A stretch of DNA of 32,000 bases from Corynebacterium glutamicum ATCC 13032 (GCF_000011325.1 NC_003450.3:30001-62000), one strand, 5' to 3'; shown: positions 24,012-32,000, counted from the stretch's first letter. The notes: a model not told the origin generated them from the letters alone. A program made the numbers and translations.

Positions 24012-24102
24012 ACCCTAAATTCTAGGAACGATTCCCCGGAACCTTGAGTGGTTTCGGGGTTTTGTGCTTTTTCGACAGAATGAGTGAACCTGCGCTTGAA
24101 CT

Positions 24103-24118
24103 ATACCCCCTGGGGTAT
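24103..24118. promoter_or_regulatory. CsoR/CstR-type operator palindrome ATACCCCCTGGGGTAT
   Basis: Read directly. 7 of 8 symmetric half-sites. Lies between a TTGAAC (-35-like, 24096-24101) and TACTGT (-10-like, 24119-24124). Confidence 0.7.
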
Positions 24119-24133
24119 TACTGTAGATTCTCA

Positions 24134-24149
24134 ATACCCCGAGGGGTAT
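24134..24149. promoter_or_regulatory. CsoR/CstR-type operator palindrome ATACCCCGAGGGGTAT
   Basis: Read directly. 31 bp centre-to-centre from the first operator. 30 nt upstream of the GTG start at 24179. Confidence 0.7.
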
Positions 24150-24178
24150 CTAGTTTTTACGTTGAGAAGGAGAGCTCA

Positions 24179-25549
24179 GTGCTTATTGAACGCATCTACG
24201 ACGAAGACCTTGCGCAGGCCAGCTATTTCATTGGCTGCCAAGCCCACAACACCGCAGTCGTGGTTGATCCGCGTCGCGATATTGCCGTCTATCTGGACAT
24301 GGCCAAGAAAAACGGAATGGAGATTGTTGGAGTTACCGAAACCCATATCCATGCGGACTATTTGTCAGGAACCCGTGAGTTAGCTGCTGCAACTAATGCC
24401 ACCATGTACGTCTCAGGGGAGGGCGGCGCCGATTGGCAGTATGAATTCGACGCCGAGCGAATATGCGACGGCAGCGAGATTCGCCTGGGAAATCTGGTGC
24501 TCACAGCTGTTCACACCCCAGGCCATACCCCGGAACACTTATCGTTCCTGCTGAAGGACGGCGCGTTCGCAGATGAGCCAGGATTCATGCTCACTGGCGA
24601 TTTCGTTTTCGCGGGTGATCTTGGCCGACCAGATTTGCTCGATGAAGCAGCTGGGGGAGTGGACACTCGTTTTGAGGGGGCTCGCCAAATGTTCAAGAGC
24701 TTGAAGGAAAAATTCCTGACATTGCCTGATCACATCCAGATCTTCCCTGGTCATGGTTCCGGTTCCGCGTGTGGCAAAGCCTTGGGTTCGGTTCCTTCAA
24801 CAACACTTGGATATGAACGTCAATTTGCGTGGTGGGGAAAGTATCTGGAGGCAGATGATGAACAAGGATTCATTGATGAGCTTCTGGAAGGCCAACCTGA
24901 TGCACCTGCATACTTCGGCAGGATGAAGAGGCAAAATAGGCAAGGGCCCGCAATTATGGGCGCTCGCGAGCTGTTGCCACAGCTGGAAGCTTCTGATCTG
25001 CACGACGTCATTGTTGTTGATACCCGCTCAGCCGATGAAGTTCACCAGGGCACTGTAGCTGGTGCAGTGAATATTCCTGCGGGCAATTCGATGGCGAAAT
25101 TTGGCTCGTGGACCGTTGATCCCGAGAAGGATTCCCGAGCTTTGGTTCTGCTCGCGGCAAGCCAAATTGGTGCCATGGAGATGTGGGACCACATGGTTCG
25201 CGTGGGAATCGATAATGTTGCTGGTTTTATCACCAACTTTGATGGGGTGGACCTAGTTGCACCGCAAACTGTGTCCCCAGATCAGCTGGATGAATTGGAA
25301 TACGATCTACTTCTTGATGTCCGCAACCGCAGTGAAGTCGAAGAAGGCTACATCCCAGGAGCACTCCATATTAATGGTGCATCCGTGCTGTGGAATCTGG
25401 AGAAACTGCCACGTGACGGAAAGATCGTGAGCTACTGCAAGAGTGGAACACGCAGCTCAATCGCCGCAAGCACCCTGCGTAATGCTGGTTTTGATGTGGT
25501 GGAACTTCAAGGATCCTATGACAACTGGGTCCGGCACAACGCACAATAA
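24179..25549 (+). CDS. Metallo-beta-lactamase-fold persulfide dioxygenase fused to two rhodanese domains (CstB-like)
   Basis: MBL motif ETHIHADYLSG and downstream His/Asp ligands (HTPGHTPEH, GDFVFAGD, PGHG). The C-terminal rhodanese has the active-site loop CKSGTRS. GAAGGAG precedes GTG 24179. The track ORF start at 24044 would read through the operators. Confidence 0.8.
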   Translation: MLIERIYDEDLAQASYFIGCQAHNTAVVVDPRRDIAVYLDMAKKNGMEIVGVTETHIHADYLSGTRELAAATNATMYVSGEGGADWQYEFDAERICDGSEIRLGNLVLTAVHTPGHTPEHLSFLLKDGAFADEPGFMLTGDFVFAGDLGRPDLLDEAAGGVDTRFEGARQMFKSLKEKFLTLPDHIQIFPGHGSGSACGKALGSVPSTTLGYERQFAWWGKYLEADDEQGFIDELLEGQPDAPAYFGRMKRQNRQGPAIMGARELLPQLEASDLHDVIVVDTRSADEVHQGTVAGAVNIPAGNSMAKFGSWTVDPEKDSRALVLLAASQIGAMEMWDHMVRVGIDNVAGFITNFDGVDLVAPQTVSPDQLDELEYDLLLDVRNRSEVEEGYIPGALHINGASVLWNLEKLPRDGKIVSYCKSGTRSSIAASTLRNAGFDVVELQGSYDNWVRHNAQ

Positions 25550-25560
25550 ACAATAGTAAA

Positions 25561-25596
25561 AGGAACCCTCACGGATTGTGAGGGTTCCTTTTTTTG
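25561..25596. terminator. Rho-independent terminator between the convergent MBL-rhodanese and tauE genes
   Basis: Perfect 12-bp stem aggaaccctcac / gtgagggttcct, 5-nt loop, T7 run at 25590-25596. Confidence 0.85.
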
Positions 25597-25625
25597 GGTT
25601 TCGCCGGAGGGAGACGTCGAAAAGC

Positions 25626-26372
25626 TTATAAAAGCTCCAAGCCGAGCACGAACACGCCCATGACCAGCACGAACACCCCGAACCCTTTGCGGAGCAAAGT
25701 CTCAGGCACGCGCCCCGCAAGGCGCGAACCGGCAAGCGAACCGACGATGGCGGCCGCAGTCACCATCAGCACCAGCCCCCAATCCAGCTGCACGCTGGTC
25801 AGATACCCGGCAAGCCCCGCAAACGACTTCATCGTGATCACCACCAACGACGTGCCCACAGCCACCGGCATCGACAGCCCGCCGAGCAGCGCCAGCGCCG
25901 GCACCACCAAAAAGCCGCCGCCCGCACCAACAAGCCCGGTCACCGCGCCGACCACCAGGCCATCAACAAGGACGCGCCAAAGAGAGCTTTTCGACGCCCC
26001 CTTCTTCTGCTTACGCCCCCGCAACATCGCAGTCGACGTGGCGATCATCATGAGCGCAAACGCGATCATCAAAATCGTGCCAGGAATGTAGCCCCCGAGA
26101 ACGCCACCGCCAAACGCGCCAACCATGCCCGCGGCACCAAACAGCAGGCCAGTCTTCCACCGGACCCGCCCATTTCTTGCGTGACTAATGGCACTGACCA
26201 GCGACGTTGTGCCCACAATAAACAGCGAGGCGGCAATAGCTTCACGAGGCTCCAACCCCGCCACATACGTCAGAATTGGAACAGTGAGGATCGAACCACC
26301 ACCGCCCAACAGTCCTAGCGAAATGCCAATAAAAAGAGATAGAAAAAGAGTGAGGAGCAAAACGGCGGTCAT
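25626..26372 (-). CDS. TauE/SafE (TSUP) family sulfite/sulfonate exporter
   Basis: Polytopic ORF with Gly-rich repeats (LLGGGGSILTVP, GLVGAGGGFLVVP). Preferred start is ATG 26372 (MTAVLLL) with AGGAAG upstream; the track start at 26417 would overlap the upstream rhodanese gene. Confidence 0.8.
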   Translation of the reverse strand: MTAVLLLTLFLSLFIGISLGLLGGGGSILTVPILTYVAGLEPREAIAASLFIVGTTSLVSAISHARNGRVRWKTGLLFGAAGMVGAFGGGVLGGYIPGTILMIAFALMMIATSTAMLRGRKQKKGASKSSLWRVLVDGLVVGAVTGLVGAGGGFLVVPALALLGGLSMPVAVGTSLVVITMKSFAGLAGYLTSVQLDWGLVLMVTAAAIVGSLAGSRLAGRVPETLLRKGFGVFVLVMGVFVLGLELL

Positions 26373-26382
26373 TGGGGACTTC

Positions 26383-26676
26383 CTACTTAATCGGCAGATT
26401 GTTTTGGTACCACGCACTCATTCCGCCAGTCATAGAGTACGCGGTATATCCCGCCTGTTTAAGTGCATTTGCCACCTGTGTACTGCGGTTACCGCTGCGG
26501 CACACCACAATGACCGGCCGATTCTGATCTAGCTCTTTGAAGCGAAAGTTGAGCTCACCCATGGGAATATGTACTGCCTCGGGGATTATGCCCTCGGCAA
26601 TTTCAAAATTTTCGCGCACATCCAGGATCTGATCCAAATTTCGGCGCTTGTTAGTTTCAGTAATGGTGATAGACAT
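26383..26676 (-). CDS. Single-domain rhodanese sulfurtransferase
   Basis: 97-aa ORF with active-site loop CRSGNRS. Its start codon directly abuts the stop of the upstream gene. Confidence 0.85.
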   Translation of the reverse strand: MSITITETNKRRNLDQILDVRENFEIAEGIIPEAVHIPMGELNFRFKELDQNRPVIVVCRSGNRSTQVANALKQAGYTAYSMTGGMSAWYQNNLPIK

Positions 26677-27270
26677 TTAGTTCTCCTTAGGGCTTGGAAG
26701 CTTGCTCAATGTCTCGGTTTCGGTAGGAACTGGCTTAGTTTTATTCCACGGCAAGGCGGACAGAGCTTTGCCCATGGCACAGGTGTTGGAAACGCCAGAA
26801 AATGTCAGACCCGCACCAATAATTCCCGACAGGGTGCGAACTTTTGGTGAAAGGAATTTACCTCCCGCAAGCCCTGCGAGCACCAATGATCCAGCGGCAA
26901 AACGCACCTGACGTTCGATATCCCACACCTGGGTTCCGCGGACCACATCACCGTCAGCCTTAGCAAAACTATTGATGCCACCCTCCAAAACAGCCACGGT
27001 GGAAATTCCCAAAGGTGCCAGCTTTTGTTGTGCCTGACCTGCTCGAATGCCGGATTGACACACCAAAACAACATGTTCTCCAACACGAGAGGAAATCTCT
27101 TCGGAATGCTCAGCAAGTGTAGTTAGAGGCACGTTGTAAGAGCCTTTAATGTGCAAATTTGAAAACTCATGTGCAGTGCGGACGTCAATGACGGTGAGTC
27201 CTTCATGCTTATCGATCCACGATTTTAGAGTCTGTGCATCTACGGAAGTAATCGGTTGAGCGGAAGTCAT
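26677..27270 (-). CDS. Rhodanese domain fused to a YgaP-like (DUF2892) membrane domain
   Basis: Active-site loop CQSGIRA. C-terminal hydrophobic region with GAGLTFSGVSNTCAMG, typical of the YgaP/DUF2892 module. Confidence 0.75.
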   Translation of the reverse strand: MTSAQPITSVDAQTLKSWIDKHEGLTVIDVRTAHEFSNLHIKGSYNVPLTTLAEHSEEISSRVGEHVVLVCQSGIRAGQAQQKLAPLGISTVAVLEGGINSFAKADGDVVRGTQVWDIERQVRFAAGSLVLAGLAGGKFLSPKVRTLSGIIGAGLTFSGVSNTCAMGKALSALPWNKTKPVPTETETLSKLPSPKEN

Positions 27271-27297
27271 ACCTTGTCCTTTTCAATCTCAAAGTGA

Positions 27298-27654
<357 letters not shown>

Positions 27655-28086: not shown

Positions 28087-28944
28087 ATGAGAACTGTTTT
28101 TCAATTGGTGCAGGATTTCCACAAGGAAGCTAGGGGAGAGGGGCTTCCAATCAAGTGGGGTCCATCGCGTGGAGAATTTGGCATGCTGGAGTTTCCTGCA
28201 GATGTCATTCCCGAGAACATCAAACACATTGCGCAGACAAAGTTCCAGACTGAAGCAACTTCGGTGGAGGATATTCGTCGTGCGATTAACCTGCTGAGTG
28301 ATCAGGCGGAGCGTGCGGGTGCGTCCTTTAATCCTGGTTTCATTCTTGCGCAGGTGGGCTCCACCATCGTGGAGGTTTATGGCGGTGCTCCGGTTGCTTG
28401 GCTGGATGCGGTTGAGCTGTTGATTAGTCCTGATGTGGAGTGGGTTGGGGTTCATGGCTCAAGGAAGCTCGATATTAATGTCAGCGGAGAATTGTCCGGG
28501 GTGATTTCTGCTGGTGACAAGTTGGGTGAACTGCTTGGCGATGATTGGACAATCAACATTGTTCACGGCGAGTACAAAATCCAGATCGAAGATGCTCGAC
28601 CAAGTACTGCATTCCTTGCGGACGCGACTGAACTGATTAATCAGGCAAACTCTGAGATTGTTCCGTTCCATGTTCGGATGCTCAGCAACTCGAAAATTGT
28701 GATGTCTGGCTTTAGTGATTATTCACTAGCGGGTGATGCGATTACATCTGCGGGAAAACTGGCTGAATTGGCGAGGCCTTTTGCCCACTGGAAAGAAAAC
28801 GTCATTCCTACGATAGAAATAGCCATGGACTATGAACCATCACCGGTGGCAGATCTTTGGCAGGGAGATTCTTCGGAGACACCTGAGCCTTTCGACGATT
28901 TTGAGCGCTTATTGCGGGAAGAAATGCTTATTCCTGAGATTTAG
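28087..28944 (+). CDS. Hypothetical protein (285 aa), acidic C-terminus, no recognised domain
   Basis: Long clean ORF with GC-typical codon usage. No motif recognised. Confidence 0.6.
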   Translation: MRTVFQLVQDFHKEARGEGLPIKWGPSRGEFGMLEFPADVIPENIKHIAQTKFQTEATSVEDIRRAINLLSDQAERAGASFNPGFILAQVGSTIVEVYGGAPVAWLDAVELLISPDVEWVGVHGSRKLDINVSGELSGVISAGDKLGELLGDDWTINIVHGEYKIQIEDARPSTAFLADATELINQANSEIVPFHVRMLSNSKIVMSGFSDYSLAGDAITSAGKLAELARPFAHWKENVIPTIEIAMDYEPSPVADLWQGDSSETPEPFDDFERLLREEMLIPEI

Positions 28945-29090
28945 CTGGTCATAGACCTGCTGTTTTCCTATAAGGGTAGATGGCAGGTAAACAAACTCTT
29001 AATTTAATGAGACGTAAGTAGTTGATAGTTAGGGGAAATACTCCCAAATCCTCACAGGAAACGCTCTGAATTCTTTCAAAAAAATGTTTC

Positions 29091-29933
29091 ATGCTTATTG
29101 GCATGAGCAATCAAACAGTCAATCAAGCAGTGTCGTCAGGGGTGAAAGCATCCCCGCACAGGTTCAATCGTTTTGAAATCAAATACTTGATTACAGAGCA
29201 AGATGTACCTGCACTCCGCGAGCAGTTGGCAACGAGGATGAGCACGGATCCGCTTTCCCCACCCGGAGGCTACCGAGTGGAATCCCTTTACTTCGATTCA
29301 GCCGATTTACGGTGCTACACCGAAAAGATCGAGGGTCTGAAATTCCGAAGGAAACTACGGATCCGTACCTACGGTGATGGAGTGCTCACTCCAGAATCCA
29401 CCGTGTCGGTAGAGATCAAGCAGCGGGTTAACAAAGTAACTCAAAAGCGTCGGCTGGATTTGCCCTTTATATATGCGCTCGCCCTGGGCGATAGCACGGG
29501 CGCCGCGGTAGGCGAGCAGGTGGACGTCGAGAAGCTTCTTGAAATCTCTCCGGAAAACCAGCACGCTTTGATTCACGAAATGGCGTCGTTTGCTAAAAAT
29601 TATCGGCTGCGACCCATCGCCACCACGAAGTATCACCGCGAGGCATTCGTCGGCGCTGATGCGGAGGAAAGTTCGCGAGTCACCATTGACCACGGTGTTT
29701 CAGGCCGTGATCGTGATTTTCTGCTTGGCCAAGACCTTGAAGACCGCCCAACGGTGGCGCAAGGATTGGCAGTCGTGGAAATCAAATGCGATGAACGCGT
29801 GCCGTTTTGGCTCACTGATATGACTGCTCAACTGGAAATGTCCGTGATTCGGATGTCCAAATACTGCGAAACCATCGAAGCGTTTCACAACCGTCCGGCA
29901 TCAGCTTTCGGCGCTGTCGACCCCATCTTCTAA
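29091..29933 (+). CDS. VTC-domain protein (polyphosphate-polymerase-like triphosphate tunnel fold)
   Basis: Strand motifs with alternating charged residues typical of the VTC/CYTH tunnel (RFEIKYLI, YRVESLYFDS, KFRRKLRIRTY, VSVEIKQR, AVVEIKCD). Alternative start ATG 29106. Confidence 0.75.
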   Translation: MLIGMSNQTVNQAVSSGVKASPHRFNRFEIKYLITEQDVPALREQLATRMSTDPLSPPGGYRVESLYFDSADLRCYTEKIEGLKFRRKLRIRTYGDGVLTPESTVSVEIKQRVNKVTQKRRLDLPFIYALALGDSTGAAVGEQVDVEKLLEISPENQHALIHEMASFAKNYRLRPIATTKYHREAFVGADAEESSRVTIDHGVSGRDRDFLLGQDLEDRPTVAQGLAVVEIKCDERVPFWLTDMTAQLEMSVIRMSKYCETIEAFHNRPASAFGAVDPIF

Positions 29934-29951
29934 ACAAGAAAGGCCCCTCCA

Positions 29952-30665
29952 ATGTTGAGCGATCTGAGCTCCATTTTTGACTTCCAAGACCTCTCCGGCA
30001 CCTTCTCTGTCGTCGACGTTCTCATCACTTTGGTCTTGTCCTTCGTCCTGACCTCCATCGTGGGTGTGGTGTACCAAAAGACCCACCGCCACATCTCCTA
30101 CAGCCAGTCATTCGTACAAACGTTGGTGCTGGTGGGAATGGTCATTGCAATCATCATGCTGGTGGTCGGCTCCAACATTGCACGTGCATTCGCCCTGGTT
30201 GGCGCGCTTTCGGTGATTCGATTCCGCAACGCAGTGAAAGAAACCCGAGATGTGGGCTTCCTTTTCCTTGCCATGGCAATCGGCATGACTTGCGGTACCC
30301 GCTTCTACGTTCTGGCGATCGCTGCAACCATCGTTGTCTGTGGCGTTCTGTTCATCATGTACCGCTTCGACTGGTTCAAGGCTGATATCCAGCGCCAGGT
30401 CATCAAGGTGCAGGTCCCAGCCGATGGACAAGCTGATTCCGGCAGGTCCTACGCAGAAGAAGTTGAACTGATCCTCGCACAGTACTGCACTTCCTTTGAG
30501 ATGATGTCCGCTGAATCTGTCCGCGGCGGAGCCCTGACCGAGTTCTCCTACACCGCTCAAATGCGCAAGAACGTGAAGCCACATGAGCTGGTCGCCAAGA
30601 TGCGCGATGTGAACTACGGCCAAAAAGCGACTGTCCTGACCGGTCACGATCAAACGGATGTATAG
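29952..30665 (+). CDS. DUF4956-family integral membrane protein
   Basis: About 4-5 TM helices followed by a soluble tail of ~80 aa. AGAAAGG precedes the ATG. Canonical partner of bacterial VTC-domain and CotH genes. Confidence 0.7.
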   Translation: MLSDLSSIFDFQDLSGTFSVVDVLITLVLSFVLTSIVGVVYQKTHRHISYSQSFVQTLVLVGMVIAIIMLVVGSNIARAFALVGALSVIRFRNAVKETRDVGFLFLAMAIGMTCGTRFYVLAIAATIVVCGVLFIMYRFDWFKADIQRQVIKVQVPADGQADSGRSYAEEVELILAQYCTSFEMMSAESVRGGALTEFSYTAQMRKNVKPHELVAKMRDVNYGQKATVLTGHDQTDV

Positions 30666-30668
30666 AAA

Positions 30669-32000
30669 ATGCCTAGCTTTAAATCTGCTCGATGGAGGAT
30701 GAACAGACGCCTCTTCCTAGGAACTTCCGCAGCTATCATCGCTGTCGGTGGCGTGCTCGGTGGAGTGCAGGTTGTACCTTATATTTCCTCTGGTGAAATC
30801 CAAACGTCAGCATCATCGACTGCCACGATCGATGTCGGTGCAGGCAATGTCGATATTTTTGATACCTCCGTTTCCCATGAAATCAGCCTGCAGGTTTCGC
30901 AGGAAAGCCTCGATGAGATGCTCGCGGACTATCAAGAAGACGGTTCCAAAACCTGGGTGAAAGCAACCATCACGATTGATGGCGTGACCATTGAAAACGT
31001 CGGCATCCGCCTCAAGGGCAACTCCACGCTGTCCGGGTTGGGTCGAACATCTGAAGAAGGCGGACCTCAGGCACCAGAAGGCGTCGAAGAGTTTACAGAT
31101 CTCAGTGAAGAGGAAATCGCCCAGTTTGAGGAACAGTTCGCGGCGCAGCAAGAGACTACTGACGCTTCAGAGACCGGTGAAACTGCGGAAAATGAAGAGA
31201 CTCGCGGCCCCGGCGGTGGCATGGGTGGTGGCGGCATGGGTGGCATGACTTCGGTCGATGCCGACGATGTCAGCACCTGGCCACTTCTGATCAGCTTCGA
31301 CAAATACGAAGACGGCCGCGTCTACCAAGGCATGACCCAACTGGCACTACGCCCCGGCACCACCGTGGTCAACGAAGCAATGGCGCTGGCCCTGACCGCA
31401 GAAACCGGCCAGGTCTCGCAGCAATCCAGCTTCACAACGTTTTCGCTTAACGACGAGCCCTCCACCACTCGACTCCTTTTGAAGCACCCCGATGAAAATT
31501 ATGCCGACGCGCTCGGCAACGGAGTCCTCTTCAAAGCAGATTCCAACAGTTCCTTCACCTACCAAGGCGAAGACCAAACTGAATACGACGGACAGTTCAA
31601 GCAGATCAACGGTGACGGCAACGGAGACATCCAACCGATCATCAACCTGCTGAAATGGCTCGACACCGCAAGCGATGAAGAGTTTGCTGAACACCTCTCT
31701 GACTACGTCGATGTGGAAAGCTTTGCTCGCTACGTTGCCACTCAAAACCTGTTGGTAAATTCCGACGACATGGCTGGTCCCGGTAGTAATTACTACCTGT
31801 GGTACGACTACGACACCGGCCTGATCAGCGTGATCTCTTGGGATTTGAACCTCGCAATGTCCGGCTCAACTGATGCTGGCCCAGATGATGAAATCTCCAT
31901 GGGCGGAGGTGGCGGTGGCGGAATGCGTCCTGGTGGAACGACCGACACTGAAATTGAAGGTACTGCGACCGAGGATATGCCTGACATGGGCAATATGCAG
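30669..32000 (+). CDS. CotH-family atypical protein kinase homologue with an N-terminal twin-arginine signal/anchor; 3' end outside the window
   Basis: My translation of frame 3 is open from ATG 30669 to the window end (444 codons). N-terminus MPSFKSARWRMNRRLFLGTSAAIIAVGG. CotH blocks VKATITIDGVTIENVGIRLKGNST and NYYLWYDYDTGLISVISWDLNLA. This ORF is absent from the track because it has no stop in the window. Confidence 0.8.
   Translation, partial: MPSFKSARWRMNRRLFLGTSAAIIAVGGVLGGVQVVPYISSGEIQTSASSTATIDVGAGNVDIFDTSVSHEISLQVSQESLDEMLADYQEDGSKTWVKATITIDGVTIENVGIRLKGNSTLSGLGRTSEEGGPQAPEGVEEFTDLSEEEIAQFEEQFAAQQETTDASETGETAENEETRGPGGGMGGGGMGGMTSVDADDVSTWPLLISFDKYEDGRVYQGMTQLALRPGTTVVNEAMALALTAETGQVSQQSSFTTFSLNDEPSTTRLLLKHPDENYADALGNGVLFKADSNSSFTYQGEDQTEYDGQFKQINGDGNGDIQPIINLLKWLDTASDEEFAEHLSDYVDVESFARYVATQNLLVNSDDMAGPGSNYYLWYDYDTGLISVISWDLNLAMSGSTDAGPDDEISMGGGGGGGMRPGGTTDTEIEGTATEDMPDMGNMQ

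What the first reader, a model, noticed from the sequence alone, without database searches (positions are those of the whole stretch)
29091..32000. VTC-domain / DUF4956 / CotH-kinase three-gene module: a candidate split polyphosphate-polymerase-plus-channel system coupled to an exported atypical kinase
Three co-directional genes have 18-nt and 3-nt gaps. The first is a soluble VTC-type triphosphate-tunnel protein, the catalytic fold of the eukaryotic vacuolar polyphosphate polymerase. The second is a multi-pass DUF4956 membrane protein. The third is a CotH-family protein, a family shown to be atypical protein kinases in Bacillus spore coats. In yeast the VTC tunnel domain is fused to a membrane channel that moves nascent polyphosphate across the membrane. 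Here the tunnel domain and a membrane protein are separate but translationally linked, and the third partner appears to be extracytoplasmic. This organism does not sporulate and has separate PPK-type polyphosphate kinases, so the module's role is unexplained. My hypothesis is synthesis-coupled export of polyphosphate, or of a phosphorylated product, for use by a cell-envelope CotH enzyme.
Basis: partly seen in the sequence, partly recalled or inferred. Interest (0 to 1): 0.75.

Follow-up and report, generated by a model that had tools for sequence, protein, structure and literature searches.

The report
Conserved polyphosphate-tunnel, membrane-protein, surface-kinase operon
Corynebacterium glutamicum carries a tightly packed three-gene operon (a yeast-type polyphosphate polymerase domain, a membrane protein, and a kinase anchored on the outside of the cell) that is conserved in other bacteria and in Asgard archaea, and it may be how cells deliver phosphate-bond energy to the ATP-free cell surface, though no experiment has shown this.

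Summary
Window 29091-29933 encodes a soluble VTC protein (Pfam E=6e-56). Window 29952-30665 encodes a DUF4956 membrane protein (E=2e-24). From 30669 a CotH kinase gene runs off the window (551 aa in full). The gaps are 18 and 3 nt. The window is C. glutamicum chromosome.

The linkage is far beyond chance. All 81 actinomycete loci anchored on VTC carry all three genes, 80 of them in the same order. VTC-DUF4956 is also adjacent in seven loci from Firmicutes and Asgard archaea.

The VTC tunnel residues are invariant, and its model matches yeast Vtc4 best. The CotH catalytic Asp/Asn/Asp residues are invariant, and the domain sits outside the membrane behind an N-terminal anchor. DUF4956 has five helices, a cytoplasmic ACT-like domain and an invariant GAxSxxRFR motif.

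A Streptococcus VTC deletion had no phenotype.

The gene trio is already noted in the literature as a Pel-operon accessory set of unknown function. Here it stands alone, without pel genes. I rate it an uncharacterised variant of the VTC principle, interest about 0.6.

The parts
28945..29090 (+). 146-nt region upstream of the VTC gene; presumed promoter region of the operon (not mapped)
   Evidence: It is the gap after the unrelated 285-aa ORF at 28087-28944. That ORF is conserved only in C. glutamicum and C. callunae. The sigma-70-type scan found no + strand promoter-like site here.
29091..29933 (+). Soluble VTC-domain (triphosphate-tunnel) protein, 280 aa; predicted polyphosphate polymerase
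   Evidence: Pfam VTC E=6e-56. A family profile hits yeast Vtc4 at E=2e-7. The AF2 model has pLDDT 88.9, and its top 13 PDB matches are all yeast Vtc4/2/3 tunnel domains (E=1e-16, TM about 0.67), against YgiF at 1e-8. No hydrophobic segment.
29169..29186 (+). VTC residues 27-32, RFEIKY: first tunnel strand; K31 aligns with yeast Vtc4 K200
   Evidence: R27, E29, K31 and Y32 are invariant from Actinobacteria to Firmicutes and Asgard archaea.
29346..29372 (+). VTC residues 86-94, RRKLRIRTY: R90 and R92 align with Vtc4 R264 and R266
29934..29951 (+). 18-nt spacer with a GAAAGG Shine-Dalgarno-like site in front of the DUF4956 gene
29952..30665 (+). DUF4956 membrane protein, 237 aa: five predicted helices (20-44, 52-72, 75-93, 96-114, 119-138) plus a cytoplasmic beta-alpha-beta-beta-alpha-beta (ACT-like) domain
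   Evidence: Pfam DUF4956 E=2e-24; MgtC 26 bits, below its cutoff. AF2 secondary structure, with low confidence (pLDDT 63). The C-terminal part resembles ACT-like folds only weakly.
30168..30251 (+). DUF4956 residues 73-100, GSNIARAFALVGALSVIRFRNAVKETRD: the most conserved block. G84, A85, S87, R90, F91 and R92 (GAxSxxRFR) are invariant across Bacteria and Archaea
   Evidence: The positive-inside rule places the RFR...KETRD turn at the cytoplasmic face (inference).
30669..32000 (+). CotH-family kinase gene, first 444 of 551 codons (continues 323 nt past the window end)
30669..30791 (+). CotH residues 1-41: basic N-terminus with a Tat-like NRRLFLG motif plus a single hydrophobic helix; a signal anchor that puts the kinase domain outside the cell
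   Evidence: A basic N-terminus plus one transmembrane helix is found in 79/81 orthologs. The RR motif is largely confined to the corynebacterial subclade.
31008..31031 (+). CotH residues 114-121, RLKGNSTL: invariant N-lobe motif
   Evidence: 100% conserved in 79 orthologs.
31758..31844 (+). CotH residues 364-392, NSDD...SNYY...SWD: catalytic loop and metal-binding Asp. D366 and D392 correspond to B. subtilis D228 and D251
   Evidence: Alignment to B. cereus CotH 5JD9 with the same 23-residue spacing. D228Q and D251A are inactive (PMC7821199).
31032..31268 (+). CotH residues 122-200: non-conserved acidic and Gly/Met-rich low-complexity insert
31866..32000 (+). Start of a second variable insert, rich in Gly, Met and Pro (MPDMG repeats continue beyond the window)

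Best explanation
The three genes form one operon whose products work as a unit at the cytoplasmic membrane.

Proposed chain of steps:
1. The soluble VTC protein is a Vtc4-type triphosphate-tunnel enzyme that polymerises polyphosphate from ATP in the cytoplasm.
2. It docks on the cytoplasmic face of DUF4956 (the ACT-like domain and the invariant RFR turn), an MgtC-like five-helix membrane protein.
3. DUF4956 passes the nascent chain to the outer face.
4. There the membrane-anchored, outward-facing CotH kinase domain uses polyphosphate, in a compartment with no ATP, as its phosphoryl source. Its targets would be envelope or exopolymer components, either glycan or protein.

Shown here: the gene unit, the folds, the conserved catalytic residues, the topology, and conservation across phyla.

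Inferred: polymerase activity, translocation by DUF4956, polyphosphate as the CotH donor, and the identity of the target.

VTC plus DUF4956 appears to be the core. The exported third partner can be swapped: CotH in most cases, a Cthe_2159 lipoprotein in a Paenibacillus, and a PLD/cardiolipin-synthase-like protein in an Acetoanaerobium.
For: Gene unit:
- 18-nt and 3-nt gaps.
- In 81 species-level actinomycete loci, all three genes are present on one strand, 80 of them in the order VTC-DUF4956-CotH.
- The DUF4956 stop to CotH start distance is -1, -4 or +2 nt in 49 of those loci, which is translational coupling.
- No other gene is universally adjacent.
- VTC is followed by DUF4956 in 7 of 7 further loci from Bacillota and Asgard archaea. 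CotH is present in five of these.
- cg0077 and cg0078 (probably VTC and DUF4956) rise together, 11.7- and 10.0-fold, in one microarray condition.

VTC:
- Full-length Pfam match.
- K31, R90, R92, E108, K110, Y181, R183, E230, K232, S256 and K257 are invariant or nearly so over 50 distant representatives.
- K31, R90 and R92 align with Vtc4 K200, R264 and R266.
- The model matches Vtc4 at E=1e-16, against 1e-8 or worse for other tunnel enzymes.

CotH:
- The catalytic D366, N374 and D392 are invariant.
- 79/81 orthologs have a basic N-terminus plus one helix.
- In other phyla the third partner always has a lipoprotein signal, signal peptide or membrane anchor.

DUF4956:
- Two arginines in GAxSxxRFR are invariant across domains of life.

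Precedents (established knowledge, not tested here): yeast VTC couples polyphosphate synthesis to translocation, and Actinobacteria have polyphosphate-dependent kinases (PPGK, PpnK).
Against: - No biochemical data exist for any prokaryotic member.
- DUF4956 shows no detectable relation to the yeast VTC channel domain or to any solved transporter. Its model is poor (pLDDT 63, pTM 0.39).
- No VTC-DUF4956 fusion was seen among 314 VTC and 120 DUF4956 sequences.
- No protein-kinase-fold enzyme is known to use polyphosphate as donor.
- C. glutamicum CotH is very acidic (net charge -71), which is awkward for binding a polyanion unless metal-bridged.
- In S. intermedius the VTC deletion kept wild-type aggregation, while the DUF4956-like and CotH deletions did not.
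- Some loci replace CotH with non-kinase partners, so a kinase donor role cannot be the only use of the core pair.
Confidence: 0.4

Rival explanations
1. Polyphosphate export is itself the end point. VTC and DUF4956 put polyphosphate into the envelope or matrix as a polyanion, for metal and cation buffering or for cross-linking cationic exopolysaccharide such as Pel. The exported partner (CotH, Cthe_2159, PLD-like) anchors, trims or attaches the polymer and does not use it as a kinase donor.
For: - The third partner is variable while the VTC-DUF4956 core is constant.
- In Firmicutes the trio sits in polysaccharide loci: Pel, a chitin-synthase-like glycosyltransferase, and EPS clusters.
- The probable VTC and DUF4956 genes are induced 10-12-fold under copper stress in a copRS mutant.
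- Many CotH orthologs carry Met-rich repeats of the kind that bind Cu(I).
- C. glutamicum CotH is strongly acidic, so it binds cations.
Against: The CotH catalytic Asp/Asn/Asp residues are strictly invariant in 79 orthologs, which argues for catalysis and against a merely structural role. The copper link rests on one indirect microarray result, and CopR binding was located only in the cg3286-copR intergenic region.
Confidence: 0.22
2. This is a regulatory module without export. DUF4956 acts like MgtC, as a membrane regulator of phosphate or ATP homeostasis. VTC makes or senses cytoplasmic (poly/tri)phosphate at the membrane. CotH is an ordinary ATP-dependent kinase or a non-catalytic surface protein, co-expressed only because it shares a regulon.
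For: - Weak MgtC similarity (E=1e-5) and an MgtC-like architecture of five helices plus an ACT-like domain.
- A two-component system lies next to the module in about 30% of actinomycete loci and in three of three extra Firmicute loci.
- The S. intermedius VTC deletion lacks the phenotype of the other two deletions.
Against: An outward-facing kinase has no ATP supply. The near-absolute three-gene linkage with start-stop overlaps across Bacteria and Archaea suggests stoichiometric partners more than a loose regulon. The MgtC hit is below Pfam's cutoff.
Confidence: 0.18
3. The VTC protein is not a polymerase but a tunnel-fold triphosphatase or nucleotide cyclase (like YgiF, CthTTM or CyaB), producing a small-molecule signal or product that DUF4956 handles.
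For: Most prokaryotic triphosphate-tunnel enzymes that have been characterised are hydrolases (established knowledge). Vtc2 and Vtc3 tunnel domains, which are catalytically inactive, also match the model.
Against: The fold match to Vtc4 is eight orders of magnitude better than to YgiF or ThTPase. The Vtc4 residues that contact the polymer and nucleotide (K200, R264, R266 equivalents and the C-terminal SK motif) are invariant.
Confidence: 0.12
4. The adjacency is a chance or hitch-hiking arrangement of three unrelated genes.
For: None found.
Against: 81 of 81 actinomycete species-level loci carry the arrangement, with independent occurrences and shuffled gene orders in Bacillota and Asgard archaea.
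Confidence: 0.01

Closest known systems
Yeast VTC complex (Vtc4/Vtc3 or Vtc2/Vtc1), the vacuolar polyphosphate polymerase-translocase
   Same: Same catalytic tunnel fold and tunnel residues. The catalytic domain is soluble and cytoplasmic and is genetically tied to a membrane protein, which suggests that synthesis is coupled to membrane passage.
   Different: There is no SPX domain. The tunnel domain is a separate 280-aa protein and is not fused to the membrane part. The membrane partner is DUF4956 (MgtC-like, five helices plus an ACT-like domain), not the three-helix VTC/DUF202 domain, and no homology is detectable. A third, exported enzyme (CotH) belongs to the unit. Activity is untested.
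Accessory genes of Gram-positive pel loci (cotH, polyphosphate polymerase, DUF4956, DUF4832), e.g. S. intermedius SIR_1594/1593/1592 (Whitfield et al. 2020; PMC12345266)
   Same: The same three families are adjacent, with a secreted CotH and a membrane protein carrying an intracellular ACT domain. These are the only members with genetic data: the DUF4956-like and CotH deletions alter Pel level and aggregation.
   Different: Here there is no pel operon and no DUF4832 hydrolase nearby. The 81 actinomycete loci have no conserved polysaccharide genes within 7 kb. The gene order also differs. That paper reports not finding the trio outside Pel loci; this work finds it standing alone in many genera.
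C. perfringens NELoc-2 and the Planococcus plasmid cluster (VTC, DUF4956, CotH, 685-aa protein, HEAT-repeat protein, glycosyltransferase)
   Same: Same trio in the same order.
   Different: Those clusters continue into a conserved hypothetical/HEAT/glycosyltransferase set on mobile or strain-specific DNA. The C. glutamicum operon ends at CotH, with a convergent CorA gene after it.
Bacillus CotH spore-coat kinase (5JD9; Nguyen et al. 2016)
   Same: Pfam CotH domain. The catalytic Asp, Asn and metal-binding Asp are conserved.
   Different: Bacillus CotH works in the mother-cell cytoplasm, where ATP is available, on CotB and CotG. The protein here has an N-terminal membrane anchor that places it outside, carries large low-complexity inserts, and comes from a non-sporulating organism without cotB/cotG context.
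MgtC/SapB family membrane proteins
   Same: Five N-terminal helices plus a C-terminal ACT-like domain, and a weak Pfam hit.
   Different: The hit is below Pfam's gathering score. The defining DUF4956 motif GAxSxxRFR and the obligatory VTC neighbour are specific to this family.

Membership tests
VTC / Vtc4-type triphosphate-tunnel polyphosphate polymerase | Pfam VTC domain above the gathering score, matched over its full length | tested here: met
   190 bits against a cutoff of 23; profile positions 1-235 of 235.
VTC / Vtc4-type triphosphate-tunnel polyphosphate polymerase | Closed beta-barrel tunnel fold closest to Vtc4 among tunnel enzymes | tested here: met
   AF2 model pLDDT 88.9. The top 13 Foldseek hits are Vtc4/Vtc2/Vtc3 (E 1e-16 to 3e-13, TM 0.61-0.69). 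YgiF scores 1e-8 and ThTPase 3e-6.
VTC / Vtc4-type triphosphate-tunnel polyphosphate polymerase | Catalytic and polymer-binding tunnel residues (Vtc4 K200, R264, R266 and others) | tested here: met
   K31, R90 and R92 align to K200, R264 and R266. These, plus E108, K110, Y181, R183, E230, K232, S256 and K257, are invariant or nearly so across phyla. The C-terminal equivalences to Vtc4 are inferred from the Pfam match and were not aligned residue by residue to the yeast protein.
VTC / Vtc4-type triphosphate-tunnel polyphosphate polymerase | ATP-dependent polyphosphate synthesis | not testable with these tools
   Needs an enzyme assay.
Eukaryotic VTC complex architecture | SPX domain and a fused or partner three-helix VTC (DUF202) membrane domain forming the channel | tested here: not met
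   The protein is 280 aa with a single Pfam domain and no hydrophobic segment. The neighbouring membrane protein hits DUF4956 and MgtC, not DUF202.
DUF4956 (PF16316) | Pfam model above the gathering score | tested here: met
   86.8 bits against a cutoff of 30.6.
MgtC family (PF02308) | Pfam model above the gathering score | tested here: inconclusive
   26.3 bits against a cutoff of 31.4, E=1e-5. The architecture (five helices plus an ACT-like domain) agrees.
CotH kinase family (PF08757) | Pfam model above the gathering score | tested here: met
   98.7 bits against a cutoff of 23.8 for the full protein.
CotH kinase family (PF08757) | Catalytic Asp and metal-binding Asp (B. subtilis D228 and D251) | tested here: met
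   D366 and D392 align with the B. cereus equivalents at the same 23-residue spacing and are 100% conserved in 79 orthologs. The mutant data are in PMC7821199.
CotH kinase family (PF08757) | Spore-coat setting (cytoplasmic action on CotB/CotG) | tested here: not met
   The N-terminal signal anchor places the domain outside. That the organism does not sporulate is established knowledge.
Pel-locus accessory set (cotH / polyphosphate polymerase / DUF4956 / DUF4832) | Contiguity with pelDEA(DA)FG and a DUF4832 hydrolase | tested here: not met
   The flanks are CsoR-like and rhodanese genes upstream and CorA, tautomerase and CLC genes downstream. No conserved flank gene was found in 81 actinomycete loci.
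Tat-exported protein | Twin-arginine motif before the hydrophobic region, conserved among orthologs | tested here: inconclusive
   NRRLFLG is present in C. glutamicum and close corynebacteria, but an RR motif is matched in only 12 of 81 orthologs. No cleavage site is evident.

The most novel reading that the evidence does not exclude
A prokaryotic two-protein polyphosphate synthase-translocase (a Vtc4-like tunnel enzyme plus a DUF4956 conduit unrelated to the eukaryotic channel) is conserved from Actinobacteria and Bacillota to Asgard archaea. It exports phosphoanhydride energy to the ATP-free cell surface, where CotH-type ecto-kinases (or alternative exported partners) spend it on envelope or matrix components. 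This would be the first polyphosphate exporter in prokaryotes, the first polyphosphate-driven protein-kinase-fold enzyme, and an answer to how extracytoplasmic kinases are fuelled.
Probability: 0.33. Interest if true: 0.87.

Novelty: new variant of a known kind. Interest (0 to 1): 0.62.

Why it matters
Bacteria are thought to make polyphosphate with PPK1 and PPK2 and to keep it inside the cell. The VTC route is treated as eukaryotic, and no prokaryotic polyphosphate exporter is known.

Kinase-fold proteins on the outside of bacteria also have no obvious phosphate donor.

A conserved operon that joins a Vtc4-like enzyme, a membrane protein and a surface CotH gives both questions a concrete, genetically tractable test system, because C. 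glutamicum is easy to manipulate.

It would also bear on several other points:
- biofilm-matrix chemistry, since the same trio accompanies Pel and other polysaccharide loci and affects aggregation of a pathogen
- metal-stress physiology
- the prokaryotic roots of the eukaryotic VTC enzyme, since the trio is present in cultured Asgard archaea

Tried and rejected
- A single-sequence PDB search with VTC gave only E=0.27 to Vtc2. The family profile was needed.
- The 50-sequence diverse VTC alignment was too divergent for the locus finder, so a 14-sequence alignment was used. The 80 loci returned were therefore all actinomycetes. Other phyla were sampled through plasmid tblastn and Asgard look-ups only, so there is no global co-occurrence statistic.
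- The DUF4956 structure model was poor (pLDDT 63). Its Foldseek and PDB-profile searches found nothing significant for the membrane part.
- I looked for VTC-DUF4956 or DUF4956-CotH fusions among the sequences held and found none.
- I tested whether Asgard VTC proteins are closer to yeast Vtc4 than bacterial ones are. There was no such signal.
- I tried to type the neighbouring two-component systems. Actinomycete ones score best against heavy-metal CztS/CopS, and Firmicute ones against PnpS/RppB/PhoR. All are below cutoff, so no assignment is possible.
- The upstream 285-aa ORF and the downstream CorA gene were considered as module members and rejected. They are conserved only in C. glutamicum and C. 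callunae.
- A conserved Tat signal was considered and rejected as a general feature.
- The CotH PNAS 2016 paper could not be read, so the catalytic residues were taken from PMC7821199.
- The locus-tag mapping (cg0077 = VTC, cg0078 = DUF4956) rests on counting genes between cg0067 and cg0083, on the zero transmembrane helices reported for cg0077, and on my recollection that NCgl0049 = cg0067. It is probable, not proven.
- A linker-fusion structure prediction of VTC plus DUF4956 was considered and dropped, because the tool returns no interface metrics.


Full report
**1. What is in the sequence**

The window matches C. glutamicum chromosomes exactly: 0 mismatches over 12,910 nt to CP115148 and CP025533, with window position 29091 equal to genome position 59091.

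Three + strand genes lie at the window's end:
- 29091-29933, 280 aa.
- 29952-30665, 237 aa.
- From 30669, 444 codons inside the window and 551 aa in full.

The gaps are 18 and 3 nt.

Pfam confirms the three domain calls:
- VTC, E=6e-56, matched over its full length.
- DUF4956, E=2e-24, with a sub-threshold MgtC hit.
- CotH, E=6e-28 for the full protein.

NCBIfam has no model for any of the three. VTC has no hydrophobic segment, DUF4956 has four or five, and CotH has one at its N-terminus.

The operon is bounded upstream by a 146-nt gap after an unrelated 285-aa ORF. Downstream it is bounded by a convergent CorA gene.

**2. Is the linkage more than chance?**

A scan of one genome per species with a VTC alignment confirmed 568 relatives. 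The 80 best are all actinomycetes: Corynebacterium, Rhodococcus, Mycolicibacterium, Gordonia, Dietzia, Nocardioides, Micromonospora, Glycomyces and others.

I searched six-frame ORFs of these loci, plus the C. glutamicum locus, with the three proteins. All 81 loci carry all three genes on one strand. Eighty have the order VTC, DUF4956, CotH. One Rhodococcus locus has DUF4956, CotH, then VTC.

The DUF4956 stop and the CotH start overlap or abut (-1, -4 or +2 nt) in 49 loci, which is the signature of translational coupling.

Clustering all flanking ORFs found no other universal neighbour. The upstream 285-aa ORF and CorA are confined to C. glutamicum and C. callunae.

Outside the Actinobacteria the pattern is as follows.

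| Organism | Arrangement |
|---|---|
| Planococcus plasmid | VTC, DUF4956, CotH, then a 689-aa protein, a HEAT protein and a glycosyltransferase. The same set was published for C. perfringens NELoc-2. |
| Pseudobutyrivibrio plasmid | CotH, VTC, DUF4956 inside a polysaccharide cluster. |
| E. faecalis plasmid | VTC, DUF4956, response regulator, histidine kinase, CotH lipoprotein. |
| Paenibacillus replicon | VTC, DUF4956, then a Cthe_2159 lipoprotein in place of CotH. |
| Acetoanaerobium replicon | VTC, DUF4956, then a PLD/cardiolipin-synthase-like membrane protein in place of CotH. |
| Promethearchaeum syntrophicum and Lokiarchaeum ossiferum (cultured Asgard archaea) | CotH (with a lamin-tail domain), VTC, DUF4956. 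|

So VTC plus DUF4956 is an invariant core. The third component is always exported or surface-anchored, and it is usually CotH.

**3. The parts**

*VTC.* A profile of homologs hits yeast Vtc4 at E=2e-7. K31 aligns with the essential K200, and R90 and R92 align with R264 and R266.

Across 50 representatives down to 26% identity, and across Bacillota and Asgard sequences, the following are invariant or nearly so: R27, E29, K31, Y67, D69, R90, R92, Y94, E108, K110, K119, R183, R196, T198, D200, E230, K232, S256 and K257.

The AlphaFold model (pLDDT 88.9) finds yeast Vtc4, Vtc2 and Vtc3 tunnel domains as its 13 best PDB matches, at E about 1e-16 and TM about 0.67. Other tunnel enzymes score 1e-8 or worse.

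An exhaustive search found 4,941 clusters of relatives. Those listed are nearly all free-standing proteins of 230-300 aa.

*DUF4956.* It is more conserved than VTC, at 60-70% identity across actinomycete genera. The model is of low confidence. Its secondary structure is five helices plus a beta-alpha-beta-beta-alpha-beta C-terminal domain, which weakly resembles ACT-like folds.

No solved structure is related. The block GSNIARAFALVGALSVIRFRNAVKETRD is invariant in actinomycetes. Within it, G84, A85, S87, R90, F91 and R92 are invariant in Bacillota and Asgard archaea too.

By the positive-inside rule the N-terminus is outside, and the RFR turn and the ACT-like domain are inside. This is an inference, and it agrees with the prediction published for S. 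intermedius SIR_1592.

*CotH.* Alignment with B. cereus CotH (5JD9) places D366 and D392 opposite the residues that correspond to B. subtilis D228 and D251, which are 23 residues apart in both proteins. D228Q and D251A are inactive.

In 79 orthologs N364, D366, N374, W391-D392 and the N-lobe motif RLKGNSTL are 100% conserved.

79 of 81 orthologs start with a strongly basic segment and one hydrophobic helix, followed by a conserved RPYITGD. This is a signal anchor that puts the domain outside. The Tat-like NRRLFLG is mostly a corynebacterial feature.

Two inserts are not conserved. One is acidic. The other is rich in Gly, Met and Pro.

**4. What the literature already says**

The trio is not new as an observation.
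- Whitfield et al. (2020) listed cotH, a polyphosphate polymerase gene, DUF4956 and DUF4832 as an accessory gene group next to pel operons of streptococci, clostridia and bifidobacteria.
- Lepp et al. (2010) listed the genes in C. perfringens NELoc-2.
- An mBio 2025 paper deleted the S. intermedius genes. Loss of the DUF4956-like gene or of CotH reduced aggregation and changed Pel levels, while loss of the VTC gene did not. The authors state that the mechanism remains to be determined and that they did not find the trio outside Pel loci.

Full-text searches found no paper that characterises a prokaryotic VTC protein or proposes polyphosphate export to CotH.

In C. glutamicum, cg0077 and cg0078 were co-induced 11.7- and 10.0-fold in a copRS mutant under copper excess. 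CopR binding was located only in the cg3286-copR intergenic region. cg0077 also rose at pH 9. These tags are probably VTC and DUF4956, but that mapping is partly from memory (see Tried and rejected).

**5. Most likely mechanism**

The data best fit one membrane-centred machine. VTC polymerises polyphosphate in the cytoplasm. DUF4956 receives and passes it outward. The outward-facing partner uses it.

The appeal of this model is that it explains three things:
- why a catalytically intact kinase domain sits where there is no ATP
- why it is locked to a polyphosphate polymerase fold and a membrane protein across two domains of life
- why the exported partner can be exchanged while the core pair stays

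Every functional step is inferred. DUF4956 is not related to the yeast channel. No kinase-fold enzyme is known to use polyphosphate. The streptococcal VTC deletion was silent.

I give the full chain 0.4. I give the narrower claim, that the three proteins act together at the membrane in one phosphate-related envelope process, about 0.85.

Rivals:
- Export of polyphosphate as an end product, for metal buffering or matrix cross-linking (0.22).
- An MgtC-like regulatory module without export (0.18).
- VTC as a hydrolase or cyclase (0.12).
- Chance adjacency (0.01).

**6. Comparison and novelty**

Functionally, the closest system is the yeast VTC complex. The membership test fails on the SPX domain and the VTC membrane domain, so this is not a VTC complex. 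At most it is an analogous split system with a non-homologous membrane partner and an added ecto-enzyme.

It is a member of the gene set described beside pel loci, but here it lacks pel genes.

I classify it as a new variant of a known kind. The locus itself is an ordinary, already-annotated member of a widespread but functionally uncharacterised operon.

- The trio stands alone in 81 actinomycete species.
- VTC plus DUF4956 is the invariant core, with a swappable exported partner.
- The trio occurs in Asgard archaea.
- The signature motifs and the topology.

**7. Verdict**

Interest is 0.62.

Noticed in passing
L087 3338-7568 (Promethearchaeum syntrophicum) and L088 3316-7560 (Lokiarchaeum ossiferum): Both cultured Asgard archaea carry CotH (with a lamin-tail domain and a C-terminal anchor), VTC and DUF4956 as adjacent genes. 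A yeast Vtc4 fragment does not score Asgard VTC proteins above bacterial ones, so there is no sign yet of a special link to the eukaryotic enzyme.
   Followed up: partly
window 31866-32000 and beyond (CotH residues about 400-475); same region in L008, L013, L017 and others: A variable loop inserted after the catalytic WD motif is rich in Gly, Met and Pro, with repeats such as MPDMG, PEGMTPP and PAGMEPP. Met reaches 10% or more in 23 of 79 actinomycete orthologs. The loop resembles Met-rich Cu(I)-binding motifs and may connect with the copper-stress induction of cg0077 and cg0078.
   Followed up: partly
L009 4676-6864; L018 11195-12727; L089 4718-6828; L090 4756-6664; L091 8620-10639: An OmpR-type response regulator and histidine kinase pair lies next to the module in about 24-26 of 81 actinomycete loci and in three of three extra Firmicute loci. 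The sensor type could not be assigned: the best matches are heavy-metal CztS/CopS in actinomycetes and PnpS/RppB/PhoR in Firmicutes, all below cutoff.
   Followed up: partly
L089 8461-10359; L090 8513-10069: In a Paenibacillus the gene after VTC-DUF4956 is a Cthe_2159-family lipoprotein. In an Acetoanaerobium it is a PLD/cardiolipin-synthase-like membrane protein. Neither locus has CotH, so the exported partner is exchangeable.
   Followed up: partly
window 24044-27654: This is a sulfur-handling cluster: a metallo-beta-lactamase plus rhodanese fusion, a TauE exporter, two rhodanese proteins (one with a YgaP-like membrane tail) and a divergent CsoR/CstR-type repressor. It looks like a persulfide/sulfide detoxification unit and is unrelated to the finding.
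   Followed up: no
L048 3293-7807; L038 7330-9190: One Rhodococcus locus has the permuted order DUF4956, CotH, about 1.2 kb, then VTC. One Dietzia locus has DUF4956 split into two ORFs, which is either a frameshift or an assembly error.
   Followed up: no
window 28087-28944: A 285-aa acidic ORF just upstream has no Pfam or NCBIfam match and is conserved only in C. glutamicum and C. callunae.
   Followed up: partly
L027, L032, L034 and other Glycomyces loci, about 1.7 kb upstream of the VTC stop (e.g. L032 5268-6842): Nine Glycomyces loci have a 524-aa calcineurin-like phosphoesterase directly upstream of VTC on the same strand. It is a possible lineage-specific phosphate-related addition.
   Followed up: no
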